A program made the translations under genes and the position numbers. This document shows positions 17,064 through 49,750 of a DNA stretch of 64,000 bases, in pieces. The notes beneath the pieces are model-generated. The model ran no database searches, was not told where the DNA came from, and saw only the letters and a program-made list of their open reading frames with translations. The first letter of the stretch is position 1. Each line of letters opens with the position of its first letter. The stretch is from Octopus vulgaris (Eukaryota): NCBI GenBank assembly GCA_951406725.2, contig OX597837.1, forward strand, positions 2,914,001 through 2,978,000, read 5' to 3'.

Positions 17064-19508
17064 ATGGATTTTTCTGAAGAATTACCAAAGGAGACAGAAG
17101 AATCATCGTTCTCTTTAGAATGTACCCTTGCTACTCAAAAGGATATGGATACAGAAGAGAAATTATATCAATGTGATATTTGTGGTAAATCATACTCTAA
17201 AAAACATATTTTAACTAATCACAGACGCATTCATTCCAGGAAAAAGTCACTTGAATGTAATATCTGTGGTAAATTATTCTATTACAAAAGTTATTTAGTT
17301 GATCACTTGCGTATTCATACAGGTGAAAAACCACATCACTGTGATATCTGTGGTAAATCATTCGCGCGTGCTAATGGCTTAACTCGCCATGTACGTATTC
17401 ATACAGGTGAGAAACCATATCAGTGTAATATTTGTGGGGAATCATTCTCTGACAGAGGTAACTTAGATAAACACAGAAATATTCATACTGGCGAGAAATC
17501 ATATCACTGCGATATCTGTGGAAAATCATTCTTTCAAAAGGTTCATTTAATTTCTCACAGACGTATTCATACTGGAGAGAGACCATATCGCTGTGATGTT
17601 TGCGGTAGGTCGTTCTGTAATGGAAGTGCAGTAGCTCTTCACAAAGGTATTCATAGAGACGACAAACCATATCATTGTGATATCTGTGGTAAATCGTTTC
17701 GTCGTAGGAATACATTAAATGTCCACAATCTTGTTCACACAGGGGAAAAACCTTATTGCTGTGATATCTGTGGTAAATCATTCTCTCGGACAAGCCAATT
17801 AAAAATACACAAGAGACACATTCATACAAAAGAAAGACCGTTTGACTGTAATATCTGTGGTAAATCACTTACTCGTAGAAGTGCATTAACTGTTCACAAA
17901 CGTATTCATACCGGGGAAAAACCATATCACTGTGATATCTGTAGTAAATCATTCTCTCACGCAAATGCTTTAACTGTACACAAACGTATTCATACAGGGG
18001 AAAAACCTTATTGCTGTGATATCTGTGGTAAATCATTCCCTGTAAGTAATGCTTTAACTGTCCACAAACGTACTCATTCGGGAGGAAAAGGATATGAATG
18101 TGATATCTGTGGTAAAATATTCTCTTTTAGAAGTACATTAATTATTCATAAGCGTGTTCATTCAGGGGAAAAACCGTATCGTTGTGTCATCTGTGGTAAG
18201 ACTTTCAGCCAAACAAGTCAGTTAACAGTTCACAGACGTACTCATACAGGGGAAAGACCATATCGCTGTAATATCTGTGATAAATCATTCACCTATGGAA
18301 GTACACTGAAGTTTCACAAGCGTATTCATACCGAGGAAAAACCATATCACTCTGATATTTGTGATAAATCATTCTCTGGAACTAGTGACTTAGCGATACA
18401 CAGCAGACGTATTCACATAAAAGAGAAAACCTATACCTGTAATATCTGTGGAAAATCATTCTCTACTGGAAGTGCATTAACTACTCACAAACGTATTCAT
18501 ATAGGGGAAAGGCCATATCATTGTAGTGTCTGTGGTAAATCCTTCTCTCGAAATTCTGGCTTAATTAAACACATGTGTTTTCATACAGGTGATAAGCCAT
18601 TTCACTGCGATATCTGTGGTAAATCATACACTCGTAGAAATGCATTAACTGTTCATAAACGTGTTCATACAGGAGAAAAACCTTACCACTGTAATATCTG
18701 TGGTAAATCATTCTCAAAAAAATATCTCTTAACTGTACATAGAAACACTCATACGGGAGAGAAATCATATGATTGTAAGATCTTTGGTAAATCCTTATCT
18801 CAGACAAGTCATTTAACTGTTCATAGTCGTACTCATACAGGTGAGAAACCATTCCATTGTGATATCTGTGGGAAATCTTTCTCTTACAGTAAGGCTCTAA
18901 CAAAGCATGTGCATCTTCATACTGGTGAGAAGGGATATCACTGCGATATCTGTGGTAAATCATACGCTAGTATATATACACTAACTACTCATAAACGTGT
19001 TCATACAGGAGAAAAACCTTACCACTGTGATATCTGTGGTAAATCGTTCACCAAAAAAAACCTCTTAACTGTACATAAAAACACTCATACAGGAGAGAAA
19101 TCATATGATTGTAAGATCTGTGGCAAATCTTTATCTCAGCCATATCATTTAACTGTTCATCGTCGTATTCATACAGGCGAGAAACCATTTCACTGTGAGA
19201 TATGTGATAAATCATTCGCTCAAACAGCTCATTTAACAATTCACAGACGTAGTCATACAGGAGATAAACCCTATAAGTGTGATATCTGTGGTAAATGTTT
19301 CTCTCAAAAGAATGATTTAACTAAGCACAAGCGTGTTCATACAGGAGAAAAGCCGTATCAGTGTAATATATGTGGTCAATCATTCTCTGTAAATAATGCT
19401 TTAACTGGCCACAAACGTATTCATACAGGAGAGAAACCTTATCGCTGTGAGATCTGTGGTAAATCATTTCCTCGCAGTTCTGACTTAACTGCACACAAAT
19501 GTGTTTGA
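17064..19508 (+). CDS. Poly-C2H2 zinc-finger protein (ZNF-A), 814 aa, about 28 finger units, single coding exon
   Basis: Long ORF of tandem CxxC-x12-HxxxH units with TGEKPY linkers. Short acidic N-terminus [13 protein letters not shown]. Two fingers lack a Cys (YHSDIC, CKIFGK). Putative splice acceptor TTTCAG ends at 16822. Confidence 0.95.
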   Translation: MDFSEELPKETEESSFSLECTLATQKDMDTEEKLYQCDICGKSYSKKHILTNHRRIHSRKKSLECNICGKLFYYKSYLVDHLRIHTGEKPHHCDICGKSFARANGLTRHVRIHTGEKPYQCNICGESFSDRGNLDKHRNIHTGEKSYHCDICGKSFFQKVHLISHRRIHTGERPYRCDVCGRSFCNGSAVALHKGIHRDDKPYHCDICGKSFRRRNTLNVHNLVHTGEKPYCCDICGKSFSRTSQLKIHKRHIHTKERPFDCNICGKSLTRRSALTVHKRIHTGEKPYHCDICSKSFSHANALTVHKRIHTGEKPYCCDICGKSFPVSNALTVHKRTHSGGKGYECDICGKIFSFRSTLIIHKRVHSGEKPYRCVICGKTFSQTSQLTVHRRTHTGERPYRCNICDKSFTYGSTLKFHKRIHTEEKPYHSDICDKSFSGTSDLAIHSRRIHIKEKTYTCNICGKSFSTGSALTTHKRIHIGERPYHCSVCGKSFSRNSGLIKHMCFHTGDKPFHCDICGKSYTRRNALTVHKRVHTGEKPYHCNICGKSFSKKYLLTVHRNTHTGEKSYDCKIFGKSLSQTSHLTVHSRTHTGEKPFHCDICGKSFSYSKALTKHVHLHTGEKGYHCDICGKSYASIYTLTTHKRVHTGEKPYHCDICGKSFTKKNLLTVHKNTHTGEKSYDCKICGKSLSQPYHLTVHRRIHTGEKPFHCEICDKSFAQTAHLTIHRRSHTGDKPYKCDICGKCFSQKNDLTKHKRVHTGEKPYQCNICGQSFSVNNALTGHKRIHTGEKPYRCEICGKSFPRSSDLTAHKCV

Positions 19509-19804
19509 TCTAATGAAGAACTTTATAACAGTGATATTTGTAATAAATAACTCATTTACTCAAAAATGTCCTTTGTGGAGTGAGTGAGAAATGGACAGAC
19601 ACATCAGCACTCTAATGTTGTCAGCAACACGACAGCCTCTCTAGTGCTGGCTCCAAAGTAAAATACATCCTGTACATTGTGAAATTGATGGTGATACGTA
19701 GGGCAGCCAGCCACAAAAACCATATTCCCTGAAGCAAACCATACATATGACTTTGTTTAAAACATGAAGTAGAGGTTTTTTTCTTTTTGTTTTCACTTCG
19801 ATAG

Positions 19805-19975
19805 TAACAAACTTATTCACACAAATGTTGAAAGGATTTTACTATGATGTCTGGTAAATCATTCCCTCATGGAAACACCTTAACTACTCACAGGTATGAT
19901 TGTACAGGTGAGAAACCATTTCACTCCAATATCAGTGGTAAGTCATTCACTTCAAAATACACATTAGTAAACAAG
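19805..19975 (+). pseudogene. Degenerate fingers in the ZNF-A 3' region (homologues at about 25920-26095 minus and 49960-50090)
   Basis: ORF 19844-20038 SGKSFPHGNTLTTHRYDCTGEKPFHSNISGKSFTS is a finger pattern without Cys ligands. Confidence 0.75.
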
Positions 19976-20408
19976 ACAAGAATGAGCTCTGAGGTGTCTT
20001 CACGCATGCAAATGGACATTTGGACTATTGGAATGTAAGCATTACACAATACTAATAAAGGAGCAACCAAAATCCCCAAAATGAATGAAAACTAACTAAA
20101 TACTTCTATGTAGACAATGTACTCAATATAACAGGTAGCAGACTCTTGCAGTGGGACTGAACCTAAAACAATGTTTTTGGGATGCAGATATCTTACCACA
20201 GCCACATCTATGCCTAAAAATGCAGTTTTAGTTTGGGACTTCAATTCTAAAATGATTTTTTTGTAATTTATCTTTGGCTTGCAATTATCATAACCACATC
20301 CTAGTAACCAGTGTATTGTGAGTTAATTTTTTTATTTTCATTTATTAATGTTTATATATTTTTTTCTAAACAGTCACTTATATTATCCAACATATTCCAT
20401 TACTTTTG

Positions 20409-20948
20409 ATTGACTCCTTGTTCAATCAGCTTCAAATCTTTATCTGATTATTTACCAAATAATGGTCATCACTGCACCATTTATAGAACATTGTGCTTTT
20501 CCAGAAGTTTTCTTTTCTCTGTGATGATTGGTTACATGAAACTTGGAGTAAAATTTTTTCAGTTTCAATAAAACACTCTATTATATTCTATCTTTGGTCT
20601 TTGAGTTCTGTTTTCTCCAGCTTCTTTTGCACCTGAATACATTCACACATCTCTCACTCTCAGCTGGTTTGTCTGTCTGTCTGTCTATTTATTTATTTGC
20701 AGTTTCACTCATATTTCAGTAGCAAATACGCAGTGTGTACTTGACCAAAAAATGGTGGTGACACCCACCCCCCCTAAAATAGTTACATAAAGACAACATA
20801 CACATCTGCCTAACTTAACAAGAGCCATTCCAATGTCTGTGCAATGTGTGGGCATGGGGGAAAGTCCTTGCATCCTCTACAAAACCAGACTTGGAGAATT
20901 TTCAGTGATCTGAATATGTAAATGCTTGACCCATTAGCATTTATCTCT
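20409..20948 (+). repeat. About 540 bp segment duplicated downstream of ZNF-D (50377-50935)
   Basis: Near-identical from ttgactccttgttcaatcagc to ccattagcatttatctctg. Confidence 0.88.
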
Positions 20949-21039
20949 GATGCATTTTGAAATCAAGTCAGTACCTGTCAGCTAATTGGAAGCAAACAAG
21001 CAGGTTTGTGAGGCTTTTACACCTTTCTTCTATTGCCAA

Positions 21040-26387: not shown

Positions 26388-28640
26388 TCAAACACATTTG
26401 TGTCTCGTTAAAGCAGAACTGTGAGAAAATGATTTACCACAGATCTCACAGCGATAAGGTTTCTCTCCTGTATGAATACGTTTGTGGCCAGTTAAAGCAT
26501 TATTTACAGGGAATGATTTGCCACAGATATTACACTGATACGGCTTTTCTCCTGTATGAACACGCTTGTGCTTGGTTAAATCATTCTTTTGAGAGAAACA
26601 TTTACCACAGATATCACACTTATAGGGTTTATCTCCTGTATGAGTACGTCTGTGAATTGTTAAATGAGCTGTTTGAGAGAATGATTTATCACATATCTCA
26701 CAGTGAAATGGTTTCTCACCTGTATGAATACGACTATGAACAGTTAAATGATATGGCTGAGATAAAGATTTGCCACAGATCTTACAATCATATGATTTCT
26801 CTCCTGTATGAGTGTTTCTATGTACAGTTAAGAGATATTGTTTTGAGAATGATTTACCACAGATATTACAGTGGTAAGGTTTTTCTCCTGTATGAACACG
26901 TTTATGTGCAGTTAATGTATATCTACTAGCATATGATTTACCACAGATATCGCAGTGATATGGCTTCTCACCACTATGAAGATGCATATGTTTTGTTAGA
27001 GCTTGACTGCGAGAGAAAGATTTCCCACAGATATCACAATGGTATGGTTTCTCTCCTGTATGAGTACGACTATGAACAGTTAATTGATAATTTCTTGAGA
27101 AAGATTTACCACAGATATTACAGTGATATCCCTTCTCACCAGTATGAAGATGCACATGCTTTGTTAGAGCCTTACTGTAAGAGAAAGATTTACCACAGAT
27201 ATCACAGTGATATGGCTTATCACCTGTATGAAAACACAGGTGTCTAATTAAGCCAGAATTTCGAGAGAAGGATTTACCACAGACACTACAATGATATGGC
27301 CTTTCCCCTGTATGAATACGTTTGTGAGTAGTTAATGCACTTCCAGTAGAGAATGATTTTCCACAGATATTACAGGTATAGGTTTTCTCTTTTGTGTGAA
27401 TACGTCTGCTGTGTATCGCTAAGTCACTAGTTCCAGAGAATGATTTATCACAAATATCAGAGTGACATGGTTTTTCCTCGGTATGAATACGTTTGTGAAA
27501 CTTCAGTGTACTTCCATAGGTGAATGATTTATCACAGATATTACAGCAATATGGTCTTTCCCCTGTATGAGTACGTCTGTGAACTGTTAACTGACTTGTT
27601 TGGCTGAACGTCTTACCACAGATGACACAACGATACGGTTTTTCCCCTGAATGAACACGCTTATGAACAGTTAATGTACTTCCAGAAGCGAATACTTTAC
27701 CACAGATATCACAGTCATATCCTTTTCCTCCCGAATGAATACGTTTGTGGACAGTTAAAGCACTTGCATAAGAGAATGATTTACCGCAGGTATCACACGG
27801 ATATGCATTTTTCCCTGTATGAATACGTTTGTGAACAGTTAATGTACTTCTACCAGCAAATGATTTACCACAGATATTACAGTGAAACGGTCTCTCTTTT
27901 GTATGAATGTATCTCTTGTGTATTTTTAATTGGCTTGTCTGGGAGAATGATTTACCACAGATATCACAGTGATATGGTTTTTCCCCTGTGTGAATACGTT
28001 TGTGGACAGTTAATGTATTCCTACGACGAAACGATTTACCACAGATATCACAATGATATGGTTTGTCGTCTCTATGAATACGTTTGTGAAGAGTTACTGC
28101 ACTTCCATTACTGAACGACCTACCGCAAACATCACAGTCATATGGTTTCTCTCCAGTATGAATACGTTTGTGAGAAATTAAATGAACCTTTTGAAAGAAT
28201 GATTTTCCACAGATATCGCAGTGATATGATTTCTCGCCAGTATGAATATTTCTGTGTTTATCTAAGTTACCTCTTTCAGAGAAAGATTCTCCACAAATAT
28301 TACACTGATATGGTTTCTCGCCTGTATGCATACGTACATGGCGAGTTAAGCCATTAGCACGAGAGAATGATTTACCACAGATATCACAGTGATGTGGTTT
28401 TTCACCTGTATGAGTACGTAAGTGATCAACTAAATAACTTTTGTAATAGAATAATCTACCACAGATATTACATTCCTGTGACTTTTTCCTGGAATGAATG
28501 CGTTTGTGAGTAGTTAAAGTACGTTTTTCAGAGTACGATTTACCACAAATATCACATTGATATAATTTCTCTTCTGTATCCATATCCTTTTGAAACGGTG
28601 ATTCTTCTGTCTCCTTTGGTAATTCTTCAGAAAAATCCAT
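26388..28640 (-). CDS. Poly-C2H2 zinc-finger protein (ZNF-B), 750 aa, about 26 finger units; close paralogue of ZNF-A
   Basis: Tandem C2H2 ORF with the same N-terminus and the same C-terminal HKCV* as ZNF-A. UTRs are near-identical to ZNF-A and ZNF-C. Confidence 0.95.
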
Positions 28641-29165
28641 ACTTCTGTAAGGATATTTTTACCGCTTTTTATATATTCCTGGATTGATCAAAACATTTAT
28701 ACTGCAATGTTTCCATGGTGGCAAACTCCATTGTAAATCTGTCCAAATTTTATTAGAATAAAAAGGAATCTACAAATTCCAGACAATGTAGAAGAGCAAT
28801 GTCTCACTCTAGAAATATTTCACTTCTGGATAAAATCTTCCTTTTATCTAGAAGTGATCAATATTGATGGTATATCCCTTAAATGCCAATGCTATCCAAT
28901 ATTCTGAAATGAGATAGAAAATAGTATAAGATATTAAAGATATTTAAGGAGTAGACATTCAACATTGAAACTTAACAATTTTATATTGATATATTGCTGC
29001 TTGCATGTTGAAAGCATCCAGTCCACACTGTAATGTGGTTGGTATTTGGAAGGGCATCCAGTTGTAAAAACCATGCCAAAACTAACCTCACCAGTGCTAG
29101 TGTCACATAACAAGTACATATGGGGTACATATCTGTAGTTATGGCGGAAGTTTTATCATCTATAG

Positions 29166-29355
29166 CAGTGCTTTTCAAACTTTTTGCTGGGGCGGAACCC
29201 CAAGGAAACATTACACTGGCACGATGAATAATTTAATAGTCTTATGCACACATATCTGCACAGGAGAATTAAAAATTACTGGCGATTTTAGCAGTTTTGT
29301 AACTTCTTGCGGAAACCCTGGACTGTACTGGCGGAACTCTGGTTGAAAACCGCTA
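29166..29355. mobile_element. hAT (Charlie-like) MITE in the ZNF-B intron
   Basis: CAGTGCTTTTCAA / TTGAAAACCGCTA termini. 8-bp TSD ATCTATAG / ATTTATAG. The site is empty in the ZNF-A and ZNF-C introns (about 14175 and 31308). Confidence 0.8.
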
Positions 29356-29570
29356 ATTTATAGAAAAGAATATGGTAATATTTTCCCCAAAATTGTTATT
29401 AGTTTCAGTTCAGTATAATTCCTGTATTCTTGAAGAAAACATCTTTTACCAATGCCGTTTATATATTTTGTTCCCATTCATACAATTACCATGATTACCT
29501 TATCAGACAAGTGGGACACAATTCTATTATTTAAATGATATTACTACAGCATTAAAACAAACATTTATCA

Positions 29571-29803
29571 ACTTACCGTTGGTAGATGTAAACAACGAAT
29601 GAATGGTGTTCTGCGTTGTCGTCGAACTCCGCCAGTAAATATTCTGATTGCTGGAAACGAGAGAATTGTCCAAGGATTCCTTTCTCGGCGACGCAAAGCT
29701 CCAAACAAGCTCAACATTAGAATCTAGAGTGAAGCTGGCTCAATGTCTACAGCCGCACTTTCGATCTCGAATAGAACAAACTCAACGATAACGTTCCCTT
29801 GCA
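29571..29803 (-). promoter_or_regulatory. Putative promoter / first exon of ZNF-B (intron about 29576-28904)
   Basis: Near-identical reverse complement of 13663-13895, with the donor retained. Confidence 0.65.
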
Positions 29804-29884
29804 TATGTCATAAGGTCACAAGGGGACGTTGAATATTTCAAGAAGTATCAAACACTTTCAATAAATTATTTTAATCTCTAAAAT

Positions 29885-30825
29885 ATGAATAGGACGTGGT
29901 GACGCAAATTCCGATGATAAACCACCGAGCAAACCTCGGTGTTCTATAGAGAGCTGGTAGAGGGAAAAAATGACGTTCTCGGAGGGGCTCAGGGGTTCGA
30001 CGAGAATCAACTCTCCAACCTGTTTAAGAAAACCTTCAGGCCGGGGTATTTAGACAATTACCAAAAATCCCTGGCTTGGCAGTGCTATAGGAATGCATTA
30101 GCTGTTCGCGATAAGTTATTTAGGCACGGAATGTCAGTGCCACCGACGTGTCCAAGATGTGGGTTGGACGATGAAACCGTTCAACACGCTTTTGTACGTT
30201 GTCAGGAGCTGTCAAGCTTTTATAAGTTACGTCGAACATGGGTTGTCGCATCTGGGACGAGTACAGCTGTCGGTTGGATCCATGATTAAGATGATACCGC
30301 CAACTGGACTCTCAAAGGAAGGTGAAGCTTGTTTTTTTCTGTACGATGGCAGTACTGAAAGTGTGTGTGTGTGTGTGGAGAACCAGAATGGAAGGTTTTG
30401 TGACAGTCCCTTGTCTCTGGCCCAGGTTTGTTAAACTTCTTCAGATGGGGTTGGAGAAGAGGAACCTGTCACAGAAAGAGTATGTGAAACGTTGGAAGGA
30501 TGTGACGAGAAAGGTGGGTGTTAGTAACCCAGCTTAATCATAAAAGAAAGGAAAAAATTAGTTGCTGGGCCTTATAGGCTGCCGGGTTCAAAATTTGGAA
30601 CCTGCATTTCCCCCTTTTTCGTTTTAACATATGTTGTTTTCTATTTTTATTAAAACAAAAAACGCACAAAAGTTCTCGTTTAAAGGCAAAAGTAAGCCAA
30701 GTTTTCGTTTATGTCATATTACAACTAAATTTTTAAGTCTCATTCGAACTTATATAACATTCTTTGTATTTGTCTGTCTTGTTATGTCCCTATCTATGTA
30801 AGATCGCATGATTATAATAAAGATT
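29885..30825 (+). mobile_element. 5'-truncated L1/Tx1-like LINE (ORF2 C-terminal CCHC zf-RVT domain + 3' UTR)
   Basis: LAWQCYRNALAVRDKL..CPRCGLDDETVQHAFVRC. Ends in ATAATAAAGATT. Confidence 0.8.
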
Positions 30826-31028
30826 TATTTGAGATCGAAAGTGCGGCTGTAGACATTGAGCCAGCTTCACTCTAGATTCTATTGTTGAGCTTGTTTGGAG
30901 CTTTGCGTCGCCGAGAAAGGAATCCTTGGACAATTCTCTCGTTTCCAGCAATCAGAATATTTACTGGCGGAGTTCGACGACAACGCAGAACACAATTCAT
31001 TCGTTGTTTACATCTGCCAACGGTAAGT
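30826..31028 (+). promoter_or_regulatory. Putative first exon of ZNF-C (intron about 31023-32649)
   Basis: Near-identical to 13694-13895. The upstream about 30 bp of the module is replaced by a LINE 3' end. Confidence 0.65.
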
Positions 31029-32912: not shown

Positions 32913-34289
32913 ATGGATTTTTCTGAAGAATTGCCAAAGGAGACAGAAGAATCACCGTTTTCTTTAGAATGTACCCTTGCTACTCAAAAGGATATGGATA
33001 CAAAAGAGAAATTATATCAATGTGATATTTGTGGTAAATCATTCTCTGAAAAACATACTTTAACTGCTCACAAACGCATCCATTCCAGGAAAAAGTCTCA
33101 GGAATGTAATATTTGTGGTAGATTATTCTATTACAAAAGTTATTTAGTTGATCACTTGCGTATTCATACAGGTGAAAAACCACATCACTGTGATATCTGT
33201 GGTAAATCATTCTCTCGTGCTAATGGCTTAACTCGCCATGTACGTATTCATACAGGTGAGAAACCATATCAGTGTAATATTTGTGGGGAATCTTTCTCTG
33301 AAAGAGGTAACTTAGCTAAACACAAATACATTCATACAGGAGAGAAATCATATCACTGTGATATCTGTGGAAAATCATTCTTTCAAAAAGTTCATTTAAT
33401 TTCTCACAAACGTATTCATACTGGAGAGAAACCATATGACTGTGATGTTTGCGGTAGGTCATTCACTAATGGAAGTGCAGTAACTTCTCATAAACGTATT
33501 CATGCAAGAGAGAAGCCATATCATTGTAATATTTGTAGTAAATCATTCACTGATAGAAGTAATTTGACTGTTCACAAACGTATTCATGGAGACGAAAAAC
33601 CATATCATTGTGATATCTGTGGTAAATCATTTCTTCATAGGAGTAAATTAACTATCCACAAACGTATTCACACAGGGGAAAAACCGTATTGCTGTGATAT
33701 CTGTGGTAAATCATTCTCTCGGACAAGCCAGTTAACAATACACAATAGATACATTCATACAAAAGAGAAACCATATCATTGTAATATCTGCGGTAAATCT
33801 TTTGCTGATGGAAGTGCATTGACTGTTCATAAACGTATTCACACAGGGGAAAAACCATATCACTGTGATATCTGTGGTAAATCATTCTCTTATGCAAGTG
33901 CTTTGACTGTTCACAAACGTACTCATTCAGGAGGAAAACCATACGACTGTGATACCTGTGGTAAATTATTCTCCTCTGGAAGTACGTTAACTGTTCATAA
34001 ACGTGTTCATTCAGGGGAAAAGCCACATTGTTGTGTCATCTGTGGTAAGACGTTCAGCCAAACAAGTCAGTTAACGATACACACGCGACGCAGTCATACA
34101 AGAGAGAAACCATATCGCTGCGATACCTGTGGTAAATCATTCCCTGTTGGAAGTCAATTAACAGTTCACAGACGTACTCATACAGGGGAAAGACCATATC
34201 ACTGTAATATCTGTGGAAAATCCTTCACCTATGGAAGCACATTAAAGTTTCACAAACGTATTCATACAGAGGAAAAACCATATCTCTGA
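32913..34289 (+). CDS. Poly-C2H2 zinc-finger protein (ZNF-C), 458 aa, about 15 fingers, truncated by a premature stop
   Basis: Tandem C2H2 ORF. The stop TGA falls at a finger's first Cys position (tat ctc tga gat atc tgt). Decayed fingers continue downstream. Confidence 0.9.
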
Positions 34290-35130
34290 GATATCTGTGT
34301 ATTTCATTCAAAATAAAAACCATATCACTGGTATCTTTGGTAAACCATTCTCTTGAACAAGTTATTTAACAATACATAAGAGACGTATTAATACAAGAGA
34401 GTCTGTATCACTGGGATAACTGTATTAAACCATTCACTGATGCAAGTACATTAACTCCTCACAAATGTATTCATACAAAAAAAAACCCATATAACAAAGG
34501 ATCTGTGGTGTATTTTTCTCTCTAAGTTCTGGCCTAATTAGCCACATATATTTTCATGCAGGAGATAAGCCCTATCATTGTAATATTTGTGTTAAATCTA
34601 TCTTAATGCACTCAGAACAGAAGAGATGCTATATTACTGGTGATATTTGTGGTCCCCAAAGTCTATCTCCTCCTCACCGTGGTGCGAACGCTGGCAACGG
34701 ATAGTGTCAGAGCTATGTCGTTGGGAACTTCGGTTCTTGGTAGGGCCACCCAAGGCAGATTGGTCTGACACCAAGTGGTGTTAGGGCCACAACCTGGCAG
34801 ACGGGGCTCTGGTGAAAATCCTTGGAGTGTCTGTTTCAGCAACCGGTGGCTCCTCGGTCATTCTGTCCCTGTGTCTGCGGACAATCTGCGGCAAACAGGA
34901 TGTCTCCACATTCGGGATTGTTGGGGACCGCTTGTGAAATCCACATATTCCCACGAAACTTCTTCCATGAGTAGAAGCCGACTCAACCCGCCCAGGGTGA
35001 ATGTTGCCACAAGTACAAGATATTTGTGGTAAATCTTTTTGTCAATCATTTCATTTGACTGTTCCGTCATATTCCTACAGTCAAGAAGCTTTATGCTGGA
35101 AATTATTTCATCAAGTAGAACCAAATTTTG
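34290..35130 (+). pseudogene. Decayed zinc-finger tail of ZNF-C, interrupted by an RTE-derived insert
   Basis: Frameshifted finger remnants ([43 protein letters not shown]) collinear with ZNF-A fingers 15-17 onward. Confidence 0.8.
34654..35018 (+). mobile_element. RTE 5'-UTR-like non-autonomous insert inside a decayed finger, flanked by the 12-bp direct repeat GATATTTGTGGT
   Basis: gagctatg...tagggccacccaagg resembles RTE/BovB 5' UTRs. Second copy at 39275-39597. Direct repeats at 34642-34653 and 35019-35030. Confidence 0.6.
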
Positions 35131-35474
35131 TATTAGTAGTATTTCCAACTACTAACAACGATGTTGTATTCATATTAAATAGATTTTCTTGTGGGAAGTG
35201 AAGCATATTCTTAGATATATGATGGCAGTGTTGTGACTGGAATGTGTTTGATCATAGGTCTGCTTAATAAGAAATGGCCATGGCTTATGTAACAGGGATA
35301 AAAGATGTTTCTAAGGAGAGAAGAATGTTATTGTATACTATTCCGAAGCATAGATTAAGTGTTAAATGTTAAATGTAATAGTTTATGTTGTGATAGTAAC
35401 TTCAATTCCTGAGTAAGTCAGCATATATAGGTTGTTTTTTTTTTCGGTGATTTAAATAAGGGTTTTGACTGTTA

Positions 35475-36125
35475 GTCCCGGGTTCAGTCCTACTGTGTGG
35501 TACCTTGGGCAAGTGTCTTCTACTATAGCCTCAGGCTGACCAAAGCCTTGTGAGTGGATTTGGTAGATGGAAACTGGAAGAAGCCTGTCGTATATGTGTG
35601 TATATATATATGTATGGGTGTCTGTGTTTGTCCCCTAAATATCGCTTGACAACTGATGCTGTTTTGTCTCAGAGGGGAACTTTCTCTGTGCAGTCCCATG
35701 GTCATTCATGACCAAAGGGGTCTTTACTCTTTACCCTTTTATACCCATGGCTGTGTAGTAAGTAGCTTGCTTACCAACCACATGGTTCTAGGTTCAATCA
35801 CACTGCATGGCACCTTGGGCAAGTGTCTTCTACTATAGCCTCGGGCTGACCAAACCCTTGTGAGTGGGATTTGGTAGACAGAAACTGAAAGAAGCCCGTC
35901 GTATATATATGTGTGTGTATATGTTTGTGTGTCTGTGTTTGTCCCCCAAACATCGCTTGACAACTAATGCTGTTTGTTTATGTCCCTGTAACTTAGCAGT
36001 TCAGCAAAAGAGACTGATAGAATAAGTACTAGGCTTACAAAGAATAAGCTCTGGGGTCGATTTGCTTGACTAAAGGTGGTGCTCCAGCATGGCCGCAGTC
36101 AAATGAGTAAAACAAGTAAAAGAGT
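35475..36125 (+). mobile_element. Two SINE family 1 copies (partial 35475-35660, near-full 35746-36125)
   Basis: Sequence similarity to the other copies. Confidence 0.8.
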
Positions 36126-36164
36126 ATATGCTTTCCACACACACACACACTCACATATACTGTC

Positions 36165-37975
36165 CGATTTCACTCACCTCTCATATCATTAAAGTATTTG
36201 AGAGGGTAGCGAGATCGCGAATAACTCACTGCCTCGAATCAACAGTCTGCTGAAGCCCAGCCAGGTAGGTTTCCGTGATGGCAAGGACTGCCTGTTACAG
36301 CTTCTGCAACATTTTGATGACATCTTAAGTGTTGGGAGTAGGCTCCAACACCGACTTCATATACCTTGATTTCAGCAAGGCATTTGACAGAGTGGACCAC
36401 GAAATCCTGCTGAAGAAATTGTCCAACATTAGAGTCCATAGCTGTTGGGCCCTCTCTTCTTCATTATCTACATCTATGACGTAGATGTCATCAAACATTC
36501 ATCATCATCATTGTTTAGCGTCCACTTTCCATGCTAGCGTGGGTTGGACAGTTCAACTGGGGTCTGGGAAGCCAGAAGGCTGCACCAGGCCCAGTCTGAT
36601 CTGGCAGTGTTTCTATGGCCGGATGCCCTTCCTAACGCCAACCACTCCATGAGTGTAGTGGGTGCTTTTTACGTGCCAGACGAGGCTGGCAAACGGCCAC
36701 GGTCGGATGGTGCTTTTTACGTGCCACCGGCACAGAGGCCAGGCAAGGCTGTACACTGAAAATTTTTGCAGATGATTCCAAACTCCAGAAAGCCATAAAC
36801 TGTATGGGAGACTAACATGCCTTCAGTCGGATCTGTTTGCTTTTGTCCGATGGGCACAAGGCAACAGTATGCTTCTAAATGAAGTTAAGTTTGATTTGAT
36901 CCACTTTGGGAAAGAGGATACTCTGAAATTACCACACGCTCTTCCCTCGGTTGACTCCCTAGTGTCATCCAACAACACCAGAGACCTTAGAGTAATTGTT
37001 GATAGTTCTAAGTTGGAGTTTCCACATAAACAGCAAGGTTGACTTGGCCCACAAGATGTGCTCCTTGATTCTGAGAACTTTCTAGAGATGCCCACACCAT
37101 CATCCTTCTCTACTCTGCTTTTGCCCGATCCCACCTTGAATACTGTTTTCCACTGTGGTCTCCCCATACGAAGCAACTCATTATGAAAGTGGAAGCACCC
37201 CAGAGGTCAATAACAAGAAAGATAGACGGCATGAGAGGCATTGACTGTTGGGGTCGACTAAAAAACCCTCAATCTCTACTCTGCAACACCACTGGGAGTG
37301 CTACATCATTTGTGTGATGTGGAAAATATTCCATCAATATTGCACAAATGATAATAAAATAAATGCGCCTTTTTAGAGCCTAGCGAGGCTCATGGGCCCG
37401 GTTTCACAAGTGTATGTGTTCCCCAGCTGGACAGGATGCCAGTCCATTATAGTGTTACTCATTTTTGTCAGCTGAGTGGACTGGAGCAATGTGAAATGAA
37501 GTGTCTTGCTCAAGAACACAACGCGTCGCCCGGTCCAGGAATCAAAACCACATTCTTACAATCATGATGCTGACACCCTAACCACTAAGCCATGCACCTC
37601 CATATTGCACAGATGATGTTGGCAACAATTTTAAAATCCATCCAAGATTTAGCCCCTGTGCTATCTGACCACTAAGAAAATTTAACTTAGGACATATAGC
37701 AACTTAACATCACAACTACTTTACCTCAAGCGGTCCAGCTCTCTTTAATACCATACCAAAATATATCAAAATGGAAACAGATCCCATAAAATTCTAAAGT
37801 TCACTGGACCAAAAAAATCCCTGACAGACCAACCTCTTACACCCAGATATGTCTCCAACAATAATAACTCTTTGCTAGAGTAGGCCATTGTGTCCCATTT
37901 ATCACTAAAAGACTTCACCAGGTGGTGCTATTAAGTTAGACAGGGCCTGGGCCTATAATGGCCAAAACCTATCAA
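36165..37975 (+). mobile_element. Decayed CR1-like LINE RT region with nested repeats (36500-36750, 37365-37602)
   Basis: Q.GFR.G..CL.QLL, IYLDFSKAFDRVDHEILLKKL, GPLLFIIYI, IFADDSKL, with many stops. Confidence 0.8.
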
Positions 37976-38351
37976 AGCTATATATATATATATACACATA
38001 CATACACACACATATATATATACGCATACATACACACACACATATCATCATTGTCGTTTAGTGTCCGCTTTCCATGCTAGCATGGGTTGGACAGTTCAAC
38101 TGGGGTCTGGGAAGCCAGAAGGCTGCACCAGGCCCAGTCTGATTTGGCAATGCTTCTACAGCTGGATGCCCTTCCTAACGCCAACCACTCCGTGAGTGTA
38201 GTGGGTGCTTTTTACGTGCCACTGACACAGGTGCCAGACGAGGCTGGCAAACGGCCATGATTGGATGGTGCTTTTTACCTGCCACCGGCACAGAGGTCAG
38301 TCGGGGCGGCGCTGGCAACGGCCACGTATATATATATATATATATATAGAT

Positions 38352-38382
<31 letters not shown>

Positions 38383-38453
38383 CACACACGCACACATGTC
38401 CAGATGTTTTGTCGCCTGTTACGTTCTTGTTCCATATTTGTTTTCTTTTTTTA

Positions 38454-38826
38454 TCTCTCTCTATATAAACGGCAGTTTGTCTGTGTGTGTTTCTGTGTGT
38501 CTGTTAGCTTGTACCCTCACCCTGACCACGGCTTTCAACCGATTCTGATGAAACTTAACACACACATAGCCCAATGTCATAATTCAAAACTAACGCAGAG
38601 AAAATTTTGAAAAGTTTCCCTAGTTCTGAAAAAAATCGATAAATTCAACATGGGGTCGAGAATCAGAAACAAACCACAGACTGTCTAGGGGACGCAACAC
38701 GACCGTTTTAACTCTCAAAAAAAAATTTACCATAATTTTTTTTCCATTTTTTTGGCTATAACTCTCTAAAAATGCTTTATAGTTATTTCCCTTACAAACC
38801 CGAGCAACGCCGGGCGATACTGCTAG
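38454..38826 (+). mobile_element. Short non-autonomous Helitron
   Basis: A|TCTCTCTCTATATAAA start and cgagcaacgccgggcgatactgCTAG|T end, with no TSD. Confidence 0.8.
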
Positions 38827-39089
38827 TATATACATATAGCGGCGTACATACACTTTTGGTCTCCTGTATGTAAGTATATGCATATATCTAAATTCTGTAC
38901 GACTCTTACTCTTTCATTTAGCTTCTTTCACACTTCCTTCCTTCTTTCCACTTTTCTTTTTCTCACTTGCATTTCTTGGCCTTCCCTTCATTCTCATCAC
39001 TTACCCTCCTGTTTTAACTCCCTTGTACCTCACTCTGTCCCTTTCCTTTCTTTTTCTCTCTTTCTTCTTCCTCTGCCCCAGACAAAGTT

Positions 39090-39275
39090 CACATCACTAA
39101 TATTTGTGGTACATCATTCTCTGTAATGCCTTACCTACTCACAAATGCATTATTACTGCAGAAAGACCCTATGGTTTTGTTATGTGGTACATTCTTTTCT
39201 CAAAATAGGGATTTAACTAAACACAGATTCATTCATTCTAAAGAAAAACCTGTATTACAATGATATTCACAGTAA
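39090..39275 (+). pseudogene. Further decayed C2H2 finger remnants, probably the distal ZNF-C array
   Basis: aatatttgtggtacatcattctct...ttctcaaaatagggatttaactaaacacagattcattcattctaaagaaaaacc reads as NICGTSFS...SQNRDLTKHRFIHSKEK. Confidence 0.7.
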
Positions 39276-39765
39276 GTGTCAGAGCTATACCGTCGGGAAC
39301 TTTGGTTCCTGGTACGGCCACCCAAGGCGGATTGGTCTGACACCAAGTGGTATTAGGGCCACAACCCGGCAGACGGGGCTCAGGTGAAAATCCTCGGAGT
39401 GTCTAATTTGGCAACCGGCGGTTCCTCGGTCATTCTGTCCCTGCGTCTGAGGACAATCTGTGGCAAACAGGATGTCTCTACATGCGGGATTGTTGGAGAC
39501 CGCTTGTGAAATCCACATATTCCCACGAAACTTCTTCCATGAGTAGAAGAAGCCGACTCAACCCGTCCAGGGTGAATGTCACCGCAAGTACAAGTAAAGT
39601 AAGTATAAAGAACAGGACATCAGCATACAAATCCTGCCAACAACATAACAGCCTCTCCAATGCTGACTCCATGATGAAATACATCCAGTACACTGTCAAA
39701 GTGACAGTGATAGGTTGGCCGCCAACCATAAAAAGCATTCCCCCCGAAATGGAGCATAGAAGTGA
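39275..39765 (+). mobile_element. Second copy of the RTE-derived element, continuing into an old RTE-type tail
   Basis: Aligns to 34704-35018. The 39618-39750 part resembles the insert in the ZNF-A/B/D 3' UTRs (19600-19740). Confidence 0.55.
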
Positions 39766-39970
39766 AGTGTTTTCCCTGATTCATCAAAGACATGAAACAA
39801 CCGAATTTTAACATTTTTTCCCCCTCTTTTCTGGTAGTAGTAATAATTTATTATATGTATTGTATTGGTTACTGATTGATTTCGGTTTATGAAAATAAAT
39901 TGTGTTTTAGAACGATCAAGTTGTTCGTTTTTGTTTGTCTGTTTCATGGCATTTGTTAAAGCTGTACATA

Positions 39971-42792: not shown

Positions 42793-43762
42793 GAGACGTT
42801 ACCGTTATAATATTTGACATCGAAACTGCGGCTGGTGACATAAAGTCAGCTTCACTCGTTCATTTCAGTTAAATTTAAATTTTACGGTTGATGAAAGGAA
42901 AAGCAATTTGAATGTTGGCCGAGAATGAAGTCGACAAATCATTGGTGAACCTCATTTTAATCAGATTTACAGCTGTCAGCTGAATCTATAATAAAGAAGA
43001 TACCGCCAACTTGACTCACAAAGGAAGGTAAGGCATGTTTTTAACTGTACAGGTGGAATTACTGAAAGAGTGTGTGTGGAGGACGAGAACGGAAGGTTCG
43101 GTGAAAGGGGCCTTCACCTCTGGCCCCGGGAGAGTTTCTACCTACGCCCCTACACTACAGATTGAGCAGGGCCATCTACCTGAAGGGATTTGTGGTTTGC
43201 CTGCCTTCTACTTATTAGGACTTTGGTTTTAGCTAGGTTGACTCTAAGGCCCTTCGTTTCTAATCCTTGTTTCCACAACTGAAACTTCTCCTCCAGTTCT
43301 GATAGTGACTCAGCAATTAGAGCAAGATGGGGTTGGAGAGGAGGACCCTGCCACCGAGAGAATACGAGAAACGATGGAAGGATGTGATGAGAAAGGTGGG
43401 TGTTAGTAACCCAGCTTAATCATTGACGAAAGGAAAAGATCGTTGCTGGGCCTTTTAGGCTGCCGGGTTCGATCTTTTAATCTTTTTATTCGTTTTCTTG
43501 CTTTGTTTTCTTATGTATTAAAAAAAAAAACTTCTATTCTAAGGTTAAATTAATGAATTATATAAAATATATTTTGGTAAATTTTTAAGTGATATCATAC
43601 GAACTCCTATAACATTTTTGTTTTTTGTTTGTCCCGCGTTGTCCCATTCTGTACAAGATCGTTTTTCGATCATAATAAAGATTCCATTTTAACAATCAGA
43701 TATTTAGTTTGGTGATAACATATAACACGTTGATCCACTGTTTACATCTGAAAATGGTAAGC
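42793..43762 (+). promoter_or_regulatory. Diverged first-exon module of ZNF-D, split by a LINE insertion (donor ATG|GTAAGC; intron about 43757-46668)
   Basis: acgttaccgtt...catcgaaactgcggctg...cagcttcactc (42796-42857) and tgtttacatctgaaaatggtaagctgataaacgtttgttttaatgctgta (43739-43788) align to the two ends of the ZNF-A module. Confidence 0.55.
42996..43683 (+). mobile_element. Second, shorter copy of the same L1/Tx1-like LINE 3' end, with a nested RTE piece at 43131-43326
   Basis: Aligns to 30290-30825 (gataccgccaact...gagaaaggtgggtgttagtaacccagcttaatca...ataataaagatt). Confidence 0.8.
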
Positions 43763-44621: not shown

Positions 44622-45506
44622 TAGAGTTTCTACCTATGCCTTTTCCACAGATTGAGCAAGGCCATCTACCTGAAGGGATTTGTGGTTTGCCTGCCTTCTA
44701 CTTATTAGGACTTTGGTTTTAGCTAGGTTGACTCTAAGGCCTTTCGATTCTAATCCTTGTTTCCACAACTGAAACTTCTCTAGTTCTGATAATGACTCAG
44801 CAATTAGAGCAAGGTCATCAGCATAGAGGAGCTCCTAGGGGCATCCTGTCTTGAATTCCTCCGTTATTGCCTGGAGGACTATGATAAATAGGAGGGGGCT
44901 GAGGACTGAACCTTGGTGGACCCCTACCTCTACCCTGAATTCTTCAGTGTACTCGTTGCCAACCCTTACCTTACTTACAGCGTACCTGTGCATGGCTTGC
45001 ACAGCTCTCACTAACCACTCATCTATCCCTAGTTTCCTCATTGACCACCAGATAAGGGATCGGGGGACCCTGTCAAAGGCTTTCTCCATGTCAACGAAAG
45101 CCAGGTACAGGGCCTTATCTTTGGCTAGATATTTCTCCTGCAGCTGTCTTACCAGAAATATGGCATCAGTGGTGCTTTTCCCTGGCATGAAACCAAACTG
45201 CATCTCATCCAATCTGACTCTTTCCCTAATAAGTTGGGCTATGACCCTCTCCGTAACCTTCATTACCTGATCCAACAGCTTGATACCTCTGTAATTATTT
45301 GTAATTAGAGCGTCACCTTTACCTTTGTAGCAGTTGACAATTATGCTGCTACACCAGTCATTGGGTATAACTCCTTCGTGTATCACCTGGTTAACTATAT
45401 GGGTGACTAGGCTATAGCCGACACTGCCAGATATTTTGAGCATCTCTGCAGTAATTCCTGATGAGCCTGGGGCTTTCCCTGTCTTCATACTTCTAATTGC
45501 CTTATC
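44622..45506 (-). mobile_element. RTE-clade LINE reverse transcriptase fragment
   Basis: MKTGKAPG, NYRGIKLL, QFGFMPGKSTTDAIF, FVDMEKAFDRVPR, GVHQGSVLSPLLF, then LLYADDL after an in-frame stop. Confidence 0.9.
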
Positions 45507-45513
45507 TATATAT

Positions 45514-45555
<42 letters not shown>

Positions 45556-45557
<2 letters not shown>

Positions 45558-45726
45558 TGCAGGAGTGGCTGTGTGGTAAGTAGCTTGTTTACCAATCACA
45601 TGGCTCCGGGTTCAGTCCCACTGCGTGGCACCTTAGGCAAGTGTCTTCTACTATAGCCTCGGGCCAACCAAAGCCTTGTGAGTGGATTTGGTAGACAGAA
45701 ACTGAAAGAAGCTTGTTGTATATATG

Positions 45727-45757
<31 letters not shown>

Positions 45758-45882
45758 TTGTGTGTCTGAGACCGATAGAATAAGTACTGGGCTTACAAAA
45801 GAATAAGTCCCGGGGTCGAGTTGCTCGATTAAAGGTGGTGCTCCAGCATGGCCGCAGTCAAATAACTGAAACAAGTAAAAGA

Positions 45883-45920
<38 letters not shown>

Positions 45921-47137: not shown

Positions 47138-49750
47138 ATGGATTTGCCTGAAGAATTGCCAAAAGAGACGGGGGAATCCTCATATTCCTGTGATATCTGT
47201 AAAAAGTCGTTCTCTCTGGAAGGTAAGCTTGCTACCCATAAATGTATTGACGAAAAAGAGAAAGCAGAAAAACGATATCATTGTGATATCTGTAGTAAAT
47301 CTTTCTCTGTAAAATTTAACTTAACAGAACATAGACATATTCATACAGGGGAGAAACCATACAACTGTGAGACCTGTGGAAAATCGTTCTCACGAATACA
47401 TACCTTAACTATGCACAAACGCATTCATACAGGAGAAAAACCATATGAATGTGATATCTGCGGTAAATCTTTCTCTCGAATACACACTTTAATTACTCAC
47501 AAGCGCTTCCATACTGGAGAAAAACCATTTAAATGTGATACCTGTGGTAAATCATTCTCTCTAAAAGGTCATTTAGTTGATCACTTACGTATTCATACAG
47601 GTGAAAAACCACATCACTGTGATACCTGTGGTAAATCATTCTCTCTAAGAAGTCATTTAGTTGGTCACATACGTATTCATACAGGTGAAAAACCATATCA
47701 TTGTGATATCTGTGGTAAATCATTCTCTCAAACTAATAGCCTAACTAACCATATACGTATTCATACAGGAGAGAAGCCATATCAGTGTAACATTTGTGGG
47801 GAATCATTCTCTGAAACAGGAAATTTAACTAAACACAAATACATTCATACAGGTGAGAAGTCATATCACTGTGATATCTGTGGAAAATCATTCTTTCAAA
47901 AAGTTCATTTGCATTCTCACAAACGTGTTCATACCGGAGAGAGACCTTATCGCTGTGATGTCTGTAGTAAGTCATTCATTGACAAAAATACCTTAAATAT
48001 TCACAAACACATTCATTCAGGAGAGAAACCTTATCAGTGTGACATCTGCAGTAAATCGTTCACAGATCGAAGTACATTAACAGTTCATACACGTATTCAT
48101 ACAGGAAATAAACCATATCACTGTGACATCTGTGGTAAATCATTCTCTCAAACAAGTCAATTAACACTACACACGAGACGTGTTCATACAGGAGAGAGAC
48201 CATATCGCTGCGATATCTGTGGTAAAGCATTCATTGTTGGAAGTGCATTAACTGTTCACAAGCGTGTTCACACAGGAGAAAAACCATATCAGTGTGATAT
48301 CTGTGATAAATCATTTGCTTATGCAACAGTATTAACTGGCCACAAACGTATTCATACAGGGGAAAAACCATATCACTGTGTTATTTGTGGTCAATCATTC
48401 ACTAGAACTAGTGACTTAGCGATACACAGCAGACGTATTCACACAAAAGAGAAACCCTATACCTGTGATATCTGCAGTAAAGCATTCGCTTATGGAAGTG
48501 CATTAAATGTTCACAAACGTATTCATACAGGGGAAAAGCCATATCATTGTAGTGTCTGTGGTAAATCCTTCTCTCGAAATTCTGACTTAATTAGACACAT
48601 GTGTTTTCATACAGGGGATAAGCCATATCCCTGTGATATCTGTGGTAAATCATACACTAGTAGAAATGCATTAACTTATCATAAACGTATTCACACAGGA
48701 GAAAAGCCATACCAATGTGATATCTGTGGGAGATCATTCTCTCGAAAGAATCATGTAAGTAATCATAGACTAACTCATACAGGAGAGAAACCATTCCATT
48801 GTGATATTTGTGGGAAATCTTTCTCTTACGGTAAGGCTCTAACAAAGCATATGCATCTTCATAGTGGTGATAAGGGATATCACTGCGATATCTGTGGTAA
48901 GTCATTCACTGATGAAAGTGCATTAACTGCACACAAACGTATTCATACAGGAGAGAAGCCTTATCACTGTGATACCTGCGGTAAATCGTTTTCTCGAAAC
49001 TTTGGCCTAGCAAGGCACATGCTTTTTCATACAGGTGATAAGCCATATCACTGTGATATCTGTGGTAAATCATTCTATGAAATAGGTAATTTGACTAAAC
49101 ATAAATTCACTCATACTGTAGAGAAGCTGTATTCCTGCAATATCTGTGGTGAATCATATGCTACTAGAAATGCATTGACTGCTCATAAACGTGTTCATAC
49201 AGGAGAAAAACCTTACCACTGTGATATCTGTGGTAAATCGTTCTCAGAGAAATATCACTTAACTAAACATAGATACACTCATACAGGAGAGAAACCATAT
49301 GATTGTAAGATCTGTGGTAAATCTTTCTCCCAGGCAGCTCATTTAACTGTTCACAGTCGTACTCATACAGGTGAGAAACCATTTCACTGTGAGTTTTGTG
49401 ATAAATCATTCTCTCAAACAGCTCATTTAACAATCCATAGACGTATTCATACAGGAGATAGACCCTATAAGTGTGATATTTGTGGCAAATCTTTCTCTCA
49501 AAATAGTGATTTGACTAAGCACAACCGCATTCATTCTGGAGAAAAGCCGTATCAGTGTAATATATGTGGTAAATCATTCTCTGTAAGTACTGCATTAACT
49601 AGTCACAAATACATTCATACAGGAGAAAGACCATATCACTGTGAGATCTGTGGTAAATCATTTTCTCACAGTTCTGCTTTAACTACACACAAATGTGTTT
49701 GTTCCAATGAAAACCTTTATACTCAAAAATTTCCTTTGTGGAGTGAGTGA
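47138..49750 (+). CDS. Poly-C2H2 zinc-finger protein (ZNF-D), about 870 aa, about 30 finger units
   Basis: The ORF track starts at GTG 47111, but the ATG at 47138 ([11 protein letters not shown]) matches the paralogue starts. Tandem C2H2 units with TGEKP linkers. Confidence 0.95.

What the first reader, a model, noticed from the sequence alone, without database searches (positions are those of the whole stretch)
17064..49750. ZNF-A and ZNF-B look like recombinant chimeras: ZNF-C-type 5' half plus ZNF-D-type 3' half
Seen: the first exon, 5' UTR and most fingers up to [18 protein letters not shown] in A and B closely match ZNF-C. From the next finger on (actagtgacttagcgatacacagcagacgtattcac, [12 protein letters not shown]) they closely match ZNF-D, through [13 protein letters not shown], the HKCV end and the 3' UTR. 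ZNF-A also shares a 540 bp downstream flank with ZNF-D (20409-20948 = 50377-50935). The switch falls in a broken finger (HSDIC) at exactly the position where ZNF-C has its stop. Inference: unequal crossover between tandem C and D replaced the dead C tail and created new finger combinations, a mechanism for shuffling DNA-binding specificity.
Basis: partly seen in the sequence, partly recalled or inferred. Interest (0 to 1): 0.7.

Follow-up and report, generated by a model that had tools for sequence, protein, structure and literature searches.

The report
Hybrid zinc-finger genes from two neighbours
Two intact zinc-finger genes in a tandem cluster (probably of an octopus) have a front half related to one neighbouring gene and a back half related to another, most likely because recombination gave an older duplicate a new tail, which is a known way for clustered genes to be reshuffled.

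Summary
The mosaic is real. In A and B, 27 of 27 fingers before the junction match C better than D, and 25 of 25 scored after it match D better. With outgroup paralogs, shared-derived sites favour A+B+C in the 5' part (30 vs 0) and A+B+D in the 3' part (33 vs 2). The junction lies at 18335-18383 and is bridged by contigs in 4 of 4 runs under two organism labels. D, and more weakly C, look unrecombined, so A/B are the hybrids. With C upstream of D, such a fusion is the deletion product. The C-type fingers next to the junction are old (pS about 0.31), while the D-type ones are young (0.045). More likely an older C duplicate acquired D's 3' half, was then duplicated in inverted orientation, and was patched by conversion. 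C is not dead, only its tail. A/B evolve faster at the amino-acid level than their parents (dN/dS about 0.9 vs 0.3). Neighbouring paralog pairs are mosaic too. The scan noted a within-gene finger fusion in another genome. Verdict: a well-documented new case of a known process.

The parts
13660..13889 (+). ZNF-A promoter and predicted non-coding exon 1 (GTAAGT donor after 13889); 5' boundary of the A/B unit at about 13660
   Evidence: A vs C differ at 5 of 501 bases over 13693-14193; the donor motif is conserved in D; A and B share about 30 bases upstream that C lacks. The donor is predicted from sequence only.
16822..17063 (+). ZNF-A splice acceptor and 5' UTR of the coding exon (C-type)
   Evidence: Contigs of X6, X19 and X20 start at 16822, two of them with extra unaligned letters; 95% to C, 69% to D
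17064..18334 (+). ZNF-A C-derived coding half, fingers 1-14 (lacks C7; finger 13 is a C13/C14 fusion)
18335..18383 (+). C-to-D junction interval in A (linker and first half of the Cys-to-Ser finger 15)
   Evidence: Informative sites; bridged by contigs in X1, X6, X19, X20
18384..19508 (+). ZNF-A D-derived coding half, fingers 15-28, to the stop
19557..19923 (+). ZNF-A D-type 3' UTR
   Evidence: 14 of 365 differences to D; only A, B and D matched above 90% among the scored candidates of a genome search
20409..20949 (+). Downstream flank shared by A and D only
   Evidence: 17 of 541 differences; 19923-20409 between the two tracts does not align to D
26388..28640 (-). ZNF-B ORF, 750 aa, inverted sister of A with the same junction at about 27477-27429
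29577..29806 (-). ZNF-B promoter and predicted exon 1, head-to-head with C
30813..31022 (+). ZNF-C promoter and predicted exon 1; C keeps upstream sequence homologous to D's (30262-30825 vs 42968-43683)
32913..34289 (+). ZNF-C ORF, 15 fingers, truncated but under purifying selection
   Evidence: 6 nonsynonymous vs 15 synonymous lineage-specific changes, p=2e-6
34290..39900 (+). Decayed former tail of C in pieces (34290-34700, 35022-35087, 39098-39275, UTR remnant 39612-39900), split by repeat insertions
47138..49750 (+). ZNF-D ORF, 870 aa, 29 fingers; fingers 14-29 are the donor type
49720..50934 (+). ZNF-D 3' UTR (49720-50084) and flank (50377-50934) shared with A

Best explanation
A and B are sister copies of one hybrid zinc-finger gene with a C-type front half and a D-type back half, likely formed when an older duplicate of C took over D's 3' half by non-allelic recombination at 18335-18383. 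Inferred order of events: (1) C's tail was cut off by a stop and began to decay. (2) At about that time C was duplicated. (3) Later the duplicate's tail was replaced, in frame and in register, by D sequence running from finger 15 to at least 1.4 kb past the stop, either by deletion between C' and D' in a duplicated C-D block or by one long non-reciprocal tract. (4) The hybrid was duplicated in inverted orientation, giving A and B. (5) Conversion re-homogenised the promoter, exon 1 and 5' UTR with C, fingers were gained and lost, and amino-acid change sped up, more so at DNA-contact positions. Shown: the mosaic, the junction, its presence in independent data, uneven ages, intact frames. Well supported: that A/B rather than C and D are the recombinants. 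Inferred: the order of events, crossover versus long conversion, tail rescue, new binding specificity.
For: Polarised shared-derived sites, ABC:ABD:CD. 5' non-coding 20:0:0 and core fingers 10:0:0 (13 outgroups each); fingers 15-17 1:12:1 (5 outgroups); last two fingers 1:9:2 (6); UTR 0:12:1 (8). AU tests reject ABD in the 5' region (p 3e-37) and core (0.025), and reject AB+C-tail in the UTR (9e-5), end (1e-3) and fingers 15-17 (0.014). Direction: D groups with three paralogs 30 Mb away at its 5' end (94/95) and in its tail (100/99), and the A/B tails fall in that clade next to D (85/94), whereas an ABCD clade in the 5' region is rejected (p 1.7e-4). C's UTR remnant has an ordinary branch length (0.21 vs 0.17-0.41 for five unpaired outgroups) and keeps an ancestral segment that A, B and D lack. 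No closer donor than C or D was found among the scored candidates of four genome searches. Ages: synonymous changes are symmetric between lineages (C side 19 vs 15, D side 9 vs 10), but the A/B stem is longer on the C side (14 of about 222 sites vs 4 of about 200, p=0.03). A-C divergence ranges from 0.01 to 0.31 along the gene (p 5e-23; synonymous only, p 0.002), while A-B outside exon 1 is even (p 0.26). The junction is bridged in 4 of 4 runs from four studies and two organism labels.
Against: The D side is not uniform either: shared synonymous differences are 17 of about 200 in fingers against 9 of 364 in the UTR (p=0.002), and 490 bases between the UTR and the flank do not align to D. Several D tracts of different age would fit as well. 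Half of the synonymous A/B-vs-C differences (16 of 32) have a 13-mer match in another finger, so finger-to-finger copying inflates apparent age. Placing ABC outside the D clade in the 5' tree is marginal (p 0.045), and the core-finger tree is mostly unresolved. One 66-base piece of C's tail is closer to A24/B22 than to D25 (2 vs 1 derived sites). The date of tail death is rough, and the dead tail's branch could not be placed in the trees. Polarisation used the five nearest fingers as stand-ins for orthologs.
Confidence: 0.6

Rival explanations
1. One recent unequal crossover between today's C and D made the hybrid. The uneven divergence came later, from finger-to-finger copying and fast evolution.
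For: There is one sharp switch. Non-coding identity is similar at both ends, 95-99% to C and 96-97% to D. Many synonymous differences have templates in other fingers.
Against: Order C-D makes this the deletion product, so a further duplication is needed anyway. In fingers 9-14, 10 of about 19 shared synonymous differences are untemplated, including five in finger 14 right at the junction. An intron patch at 14791-15031 differs from C at 28 of 241 bases. Synonymous change is symmetric between A/B and C.
Confidence: 0.15
2. There was no single long exchange. An old C-type gene had its tail overwritten piece by piece by several shorter gene conversions from D.
For: D-like tracts differ in age (fingers 15-17 pS 0.045, fingers 22-28 0.19, UTR 0.038, flank 0.031; p 7e-12) and are separated by non-aligning sequence. 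Other pairs in the cluster are patchy as well.
Against: No clearly C-type stretch survives anywhere 3' of 18383: derived sites favour ABD 33 to 2 over three segments. All D-like tracts start at one point and are collinear.
Confidence: 0.15
3. A/B keep the ancestral layout, and C and D are the recombinants: C is an A/B front plus a foreign dead tail, D is a foreign front plus an A/B tail.
For: With four genes the patterns are symmetric, and support for keeping ABC out of D's clade at the 5' end is only p 0.045.
Against: It needs two events. D's front and tail both group with the same three distant paralogs. C keeps upstream sequence homologous to D's, which A lacks and B shares only by facing C across the same spacer. 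A/B carry derived finger losses relative to both C and D.
Confidence: 0.06
4. No recombination: all four genes descend from one ancestor, and the pattern comes from fast decay of C's tail and fast change of D's front.
For: The unrooted four-gene tree is AB|CD on both sides, and C's tail is homologous to A15-18.
Against: Rooted tests reject it in five of five segments. C's UTR branch is not long. A vs D is 69% in 5' and 96% in 3' non-coding DNA.
Confidence: 0.02
5. The hybrids are assembly chimeras.
For: The region is highly repetitive.
Against: A and B differ from each other and from C and D throughout. Contigs from four runs bridge the junction with 1-6 differences.
Confidence: 0.005

Closest known systems
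Lepore-type fusion genes from non-allelic recombination between tandem paralogs (haemoglobin Lepore, glycophorin and opsin hybrids; recalled, not looked up)
   Same: In-frame, in-register fusion of the 5' part of the upstream paralog type to the 3' part and flank of the downstream paralog
   Different: Both parent types survive on the same chromosome, the hybrid has been duplicated again, the two halves differ in age, and the parts exchanged are arrays of DNA-binding repeats
Poly-zinc-finger / KRAB-ZNF cluster evolution (PMC2604467, passages read; PMC5363842, passages read; PMC3126818, passages read)
   Same: Tandem paralogs, finger gain and loss, conversion between paralogs, and excess change at helix positions -1, 2, 3 and 6
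   Different: No KRAB or other effector domain (Pfam finds only zinc-finger-type matches in the N-termini). The passages read report short conversion tracts and finger gain or loss, not the replacement of half a gene plus UTR and flank by a neighbour.
Coleoid cephalopod C2H2 expansion (PMC9068888 and PMC12513265, passages read)
   Same: Large clustered family of many-fingered C2H2 genes; the same genome holds finger arrays on many contigs
   Different: PMC12513265 has no occurrence of 'recombination', 'chimer' or 'gene conversion' in its main text. PMC9068888 invokes conversion only for protocadherins.
PRDM9 finger-array turnover (search listings only)
   Same: Recombination among 84-nt finger repeats changes contact residues
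   Different: That is shuffling within one gene among near-identical fingers. Here the exchange is between two genes whose fingers are about 75-85% alike.

Membership tests
Classical poly-C2H2 zinc-finger gene | Tandem CxxC-x12-H-x3/4-H units with TGEKP-type linkers in one ORF | tested here: met
Classical poly-C2H2 zinc-finger gene | Transcribed and spliced | tested here: inconclusive
   Contigs start exactly at the predicted acceptor with extra letters, but no run is on record as RNA and no exon 1 to exon 2 joint was among the rows shown
Classical poly-C2H2 zinc-finger gene | Sequence-specific DNA binding | not testable with these tools
   No binding data
KRAB-ZNF | N-terminal KRAB domain | tested here: not met
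   Pfam scan of the N-termini of A and D found no KRAB
Chimeric gene from two paralogs | Rooted tree changes across a breakpoint, also at non-coding sites | tested here: met
Chimeric gene from two paralogs | Parents are themselves unrecombined at that point | tested here: met
   D. C: weaker, (p 0.045 for the wider clade)
Chimeric gene from two paralogs | Junction exists outside the assembly | tested here: met
   4 of 4 runs laid bridge it
Lepore-type single unequal crossover | Both halves are equally distant from their parents | tested here: not met
   pS 24/76 vs 3/56 on the two sides of the junction, p 1.6e-4; stem 14/222 vs 4/200, p 0.03
Lepore-type single unequal crossover | The hybrid replaces its parents on the chromosome (for order C-D) | tested here: not met
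   C and D are both present downstream of A and B
Lepore-type single unequal crossover | Reciprocal D5'/C3' product | tested here: inconclusive
   None in the window. Genome searches were made with A-type probes only.

The most novel reading that the evidence does not exclude
In cephalopod C2H2 clusters, whole half-arrays are swapped between neighbouring genes as a regular route to new factors: a duplicate with a dead tail is rescued by a neighbour's tail, and the hybrid then re-tunes its DNA-contact residues under positive selection. At least three other pairs in this cluster show discordant ages along the gene, so gene-level trees and duplication dates for the cephalopod C2H2 expansion would be systematically misleading.
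Probability: 0.3. Interest if true: 0.55.

Novelty: new member of a known kind. Interest (0 to 1): 0.35.

Why it matters
The case gives a well-dated example of two zinc-finger arrays joined into a new, intact and probably expressed gene, with both parent types still next door for comparison. It shows that genes of the cephalopod-type C2H2 expansion cannot be treated as single units in trees. It also offers a ready test of whether a hybrid array binds the union of its parents' targets or new ones. The mechanism itself is textbook, which caps the interest.

Tried and rejected
Orthologs in protein collections: two searches returned only generic C2H2 proteins, at most 58% identical among the 121 rows listed and none from a cephalopod. 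An exact look-up of the five ORFs found 0 of 5. No call names the organism; 'octopus' is my inference from genome size, contig numbering, repeats and finger clusters. No relative genomes were available. Expression: no RNA holder listed on record, so contig depth was not used. I first read the 99%-identical inverted segments at 29392-31207 as transposon ends and rejected that: they are the promoter and exon 1 region, homologous to D's upstream DNA. I first took a contig end at 30994 as a splice donor and rejected that too: the donor is at 31022 and a DNA contig breaks at the same place; my notebook entry 3 is wrong on this point. An early reading that the A/B stem was accelerated at synonymous sites (seven fingers) did not hold over all 23 finger triples. 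Positive selection is not shown: A's 5' half has 40 nonsynonymous to 4 synonymous changes (p 0.02), but p is 0.09 without the probably mis-paired finger 11, and the D-half stem gives p 0.14. Fingers without a clear partner (A10, A13, A18, A20, A23, B18, B19) were left out of the lineage counts. The script stopped before its last totals, so the block sums used were added by hand from its per-finger table. Literature: eight searches showed no paper on half-gene fusion between zinc-finger paralogs in cephalopods. I read listings and keyword passages only, no supplements, and most subscription papers are not in the library.
Full report
Setting. The window is G000:C24:2914001-2978000 of a 2.8-Gb genome in 227 contigs. 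It is probably an octopus; that is my inference, and no call names it. The window holds five poly-C2H2 ORFs: A (+, 17064-19508), B (-, 28640-26388), C (+, 32913-34289), D (+, 47138-49750) and E (-, 63839-62244). In A-D the whole ORF lies in one exon behind a conserved acceptor (A 16822, B 28904, C 32649, D 46668), with a predicted non-coding first exon upstream (donors at 13889, 29577, 31022, 43756). Pfam finds no KRAB domain in the N-termini of A and D.

Observation. Finger by finger, A1-14 and B1-13 are closer to C than to D (27 of 27), and A15-27 and B14-25 are closer to D (25 of 25). Non-coding DNA agrees. In the 5' part, A, B and C are 95-99% identical and D is 69%. In the 3' UTR, A, B and D are 96-97% identical and C's remnant is 67%. 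Across the junction the best split of 86 informative sites is 18352|18359, and 0 of 500 permutations reach it. Because decay in C mimics D-type sites, the safe interval is 18335-18383. Contigs bridge this interval in 4 of 4 runs laid, from four studies and two organism labels, with 1-6 differences. It is therefore not an assembly error, and it likely predates the split of those two organisms, whose contigs differ from the window by up to about 3% and mostly 1-2%.

Is it recombination? C's tail still exists as decayed, interrupted pieces homologous to A15-18, to a later finger, to the last two fingers and to the UTR. The unrooted four-gene tree is AB|CD on both sides, so the four genes alone cannot exclude simple decay. 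I fetched 18 stretches of the same contig; they gave 13 further paralogs with a start codon plus pieces. Shared-derived sites (ABC:ABD:CD) are 20:0:0 in the 5' non-coding region, 10:0:0 in the core fingers, 1:12:1 in fingers 15-17, 1:9:2 in the last two fingers and 0:12:1 in the UTR. AU tests reject the wrong clade in all five segments (p 3e-37 to 0.025). C's UTR is an ordinary old paralog branch and keeps an ancestral segment that A, B and D lack. A sixth, 66-base piece was uninformative and leaned slightly the other way (2:1:0).

Which genes are the hybrids? D groups with three paralogs at C24:32.72-32.77 Mb both at its 5' end (94/95) and in its tail (100/99). The A/B tails sit beside D in that clade, but an ABCD clade at the 5' end is rejected (p 1.7e-4); a wider clade of ABCD plus those three gives p 0.045. 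C retains upstream DNA homologous to D's, while A's similarity to B and C begins abruptly at about 13660. A and B also carry derived losses: they have no counterpart of C7/D10, and C13 and C14 are fused. Four genome searches found no closer donor than C or D among the scored candidates. So A/B are the recombinants.

How it happened. One crossover between today's C and D predicts equal ages on both sides and, for the order C-D, loss of both parents. Neither holds. A-C divergence is 0.010 at exon 1, 0.116 and 0.061 in intron patches, 0.047 in the 5' UTR, then pS 0.12, 0.15 and 0.31 in fingers 1-5, 6-8 and 9-14. A-D is pS 0.045 in fingers 15-17, 0.19 in fingers 22-28, 0.038 in the UTR and 0.031 in the flank. 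A-B is even outside exon 1 (p 0.26). Lineage-assigned synonymous changes are symmetric (C side 19 vs 15; D side 9 vs 10), and the A/B stem is longer on the C side (14 of about 222 vs 4 of about 200 sites, p 0.03). Finger-to-finger copying explains part of this: 16 of 32 synonymous differences to C have a template in another finger. But 10 untemplated ones remain in fingers 9-14. The simplest reading is that an older C duplicate later acquired D's 3' half, was duplicated in inverted orientation, and was re-homogenised with C at its 5' end, most strongly B, which faces C across a 1-kb spacer (3 of 322 differences). Whether the D half came in one tract or several is open, since the finger and UTR ages differ (p 0.002) and 490 bases between UTR and flank do not align.

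Tail rescue. C's tail shows pS about 0.29 and pN about 0.20 from the outgroup consensus, against pN/pS of roughly 0.25-0.65 in live outgroups. Taking about one third for the live phase, I estimate that it died about 0.15 substitutions per site ago. That is near the C/C' split and well before the D half arrived (about 0.05 per lineage). Rescue of a dead tail is therefore plausible but not shown. C's stop sits in a 40-nt remnant finger absent from A and B. C itself is a constrained 15-finger gene (6 nonsynonymous vs 15 synonymous changes, p 2e-6).

Consequences. The A/B lineage shows 123 nonsynonymous to 38 synonymous changes against 26 to 25 in the parents (p 8e-4; dN/dS about 0.9 vs 0.3). Both frames stay open; the chance of no stop in 161 random substitutions is 9e-5. 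Differences from the parents are enriched at helix positions -1, 2, 3 and 6 (14 of 48 vs 42 of 288, p 0.02; 16 of 40 vs 41 of 240, p 0.002), though the comparison class includes invariant structural residues. Positive selection is not separately demonstrated. Contigs that start exactly at the acceptor suggest spliced transcripts, but no run is on record as RNA. New binding specificity is likely on structural grounds and is untested.

Comparison with what is known. Fusion between tandem paralogs is textbook (Lepore-type; recalled). For poly-zinc-finger genes, PMC2604467 (keyword passages) reports short conversions among paralogs, finger gain and loss, and selection at contact residues; PMC5363842 and PMC3126818 (passages) describe recombination, duplication and finger-number change; PMC12575710 (passages) describes non-allelic recombination in young clusters. 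Cephalopod papers describe the C2H2 expansion but, in the passages searched, not recombination between its genes (PMC9068888; PMC12513265). Eight searches showed no report of this kind of half-gene fusion in cephalopods; supplements were not read. Three other pairs in the cluster are also discordant along the gene, so A/B are not an exception. An earlier scan note (e1-7804402) concerns a within-gene finger fusion in another genome and supplied two of the papers.

Verdict. It is a new member of a known kind, interest 0.35.

Noticed in passing
L021 (two paralogs, ORFs at 1303-2994 and 7599-9095): The three core fingers are 100% identical and the first 250 codons nearly so (pS 0.057, pN 0.003), while the 5' non-coding DNA is only 79% identical. 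This looks like a conversion tract inside the coding region.
   Followed up: partly
L025 and L026; L028 and L029: More discordant pairs. L025/L026: UTR 91% but 5' region 72% and core pS 0.28. L028/L029: 5' region 97% but core pS 0.165.
   Followed up: partly
window 49693-49750: D lacks a 29-nt segment that A, B and the L035 paralog share and reads on for 15 more codons where A and B stop after HKCV.
   Followed up: partly
window 28640-32913: B and C are head-to-head with 98-99% identical promoter and exon 1 arms around a 1-kb spacer. The spacer holds a zf-RVT fragment at 29921-30289.
   Followed up: partly
window 15555-16765: A 1.2-kb insertion in A's intron, made of common repeats, with a short duplicated sequence at its ends.
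   Followed up: no
window 29166-29355: A roughly 190-bp insert with short inverted ends in B's intron; a similar sequence lies upstream of the L024 paralog.
   Followed up: no
window 7809-9570 and 11361-13133: A 1.77-kb direct duplication at 97.5% identity. An open frame at 11811-12257 recalls a Helitron-type helicase (from memory); Pfam gave no hit.
   Followed up: no
window 44835-45611, 55071-55493, 59782-61191: Mobile-element remnants: a reverse transcriptase fragment (RVT_1), a transposase fragment (Transposase_1), and a 469-aa frame that recalls a Penelope-like reverse transcriptase (from memory; no Pfam hit).
   Followed up: no
window 62244-63839: A fifth gene, E (minus strand, 531 aa, 15 fingers), is distant from A-D except for its QKVHL finger, which is 88-93% identical to those of A-D.
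   Followed up: no
L023 near 3000; window 18345-18431: The finger at the junction position is also broken in the L023 paralog, which has lost both cysteines, and it is dead in C. It may be a dispensable finger.
   Followed up: no
window 34295: A DNA-run contig (X18) has a 2-base insertion in C's dead tail just after the stop, probably a polymorphism.
   Followed up: no
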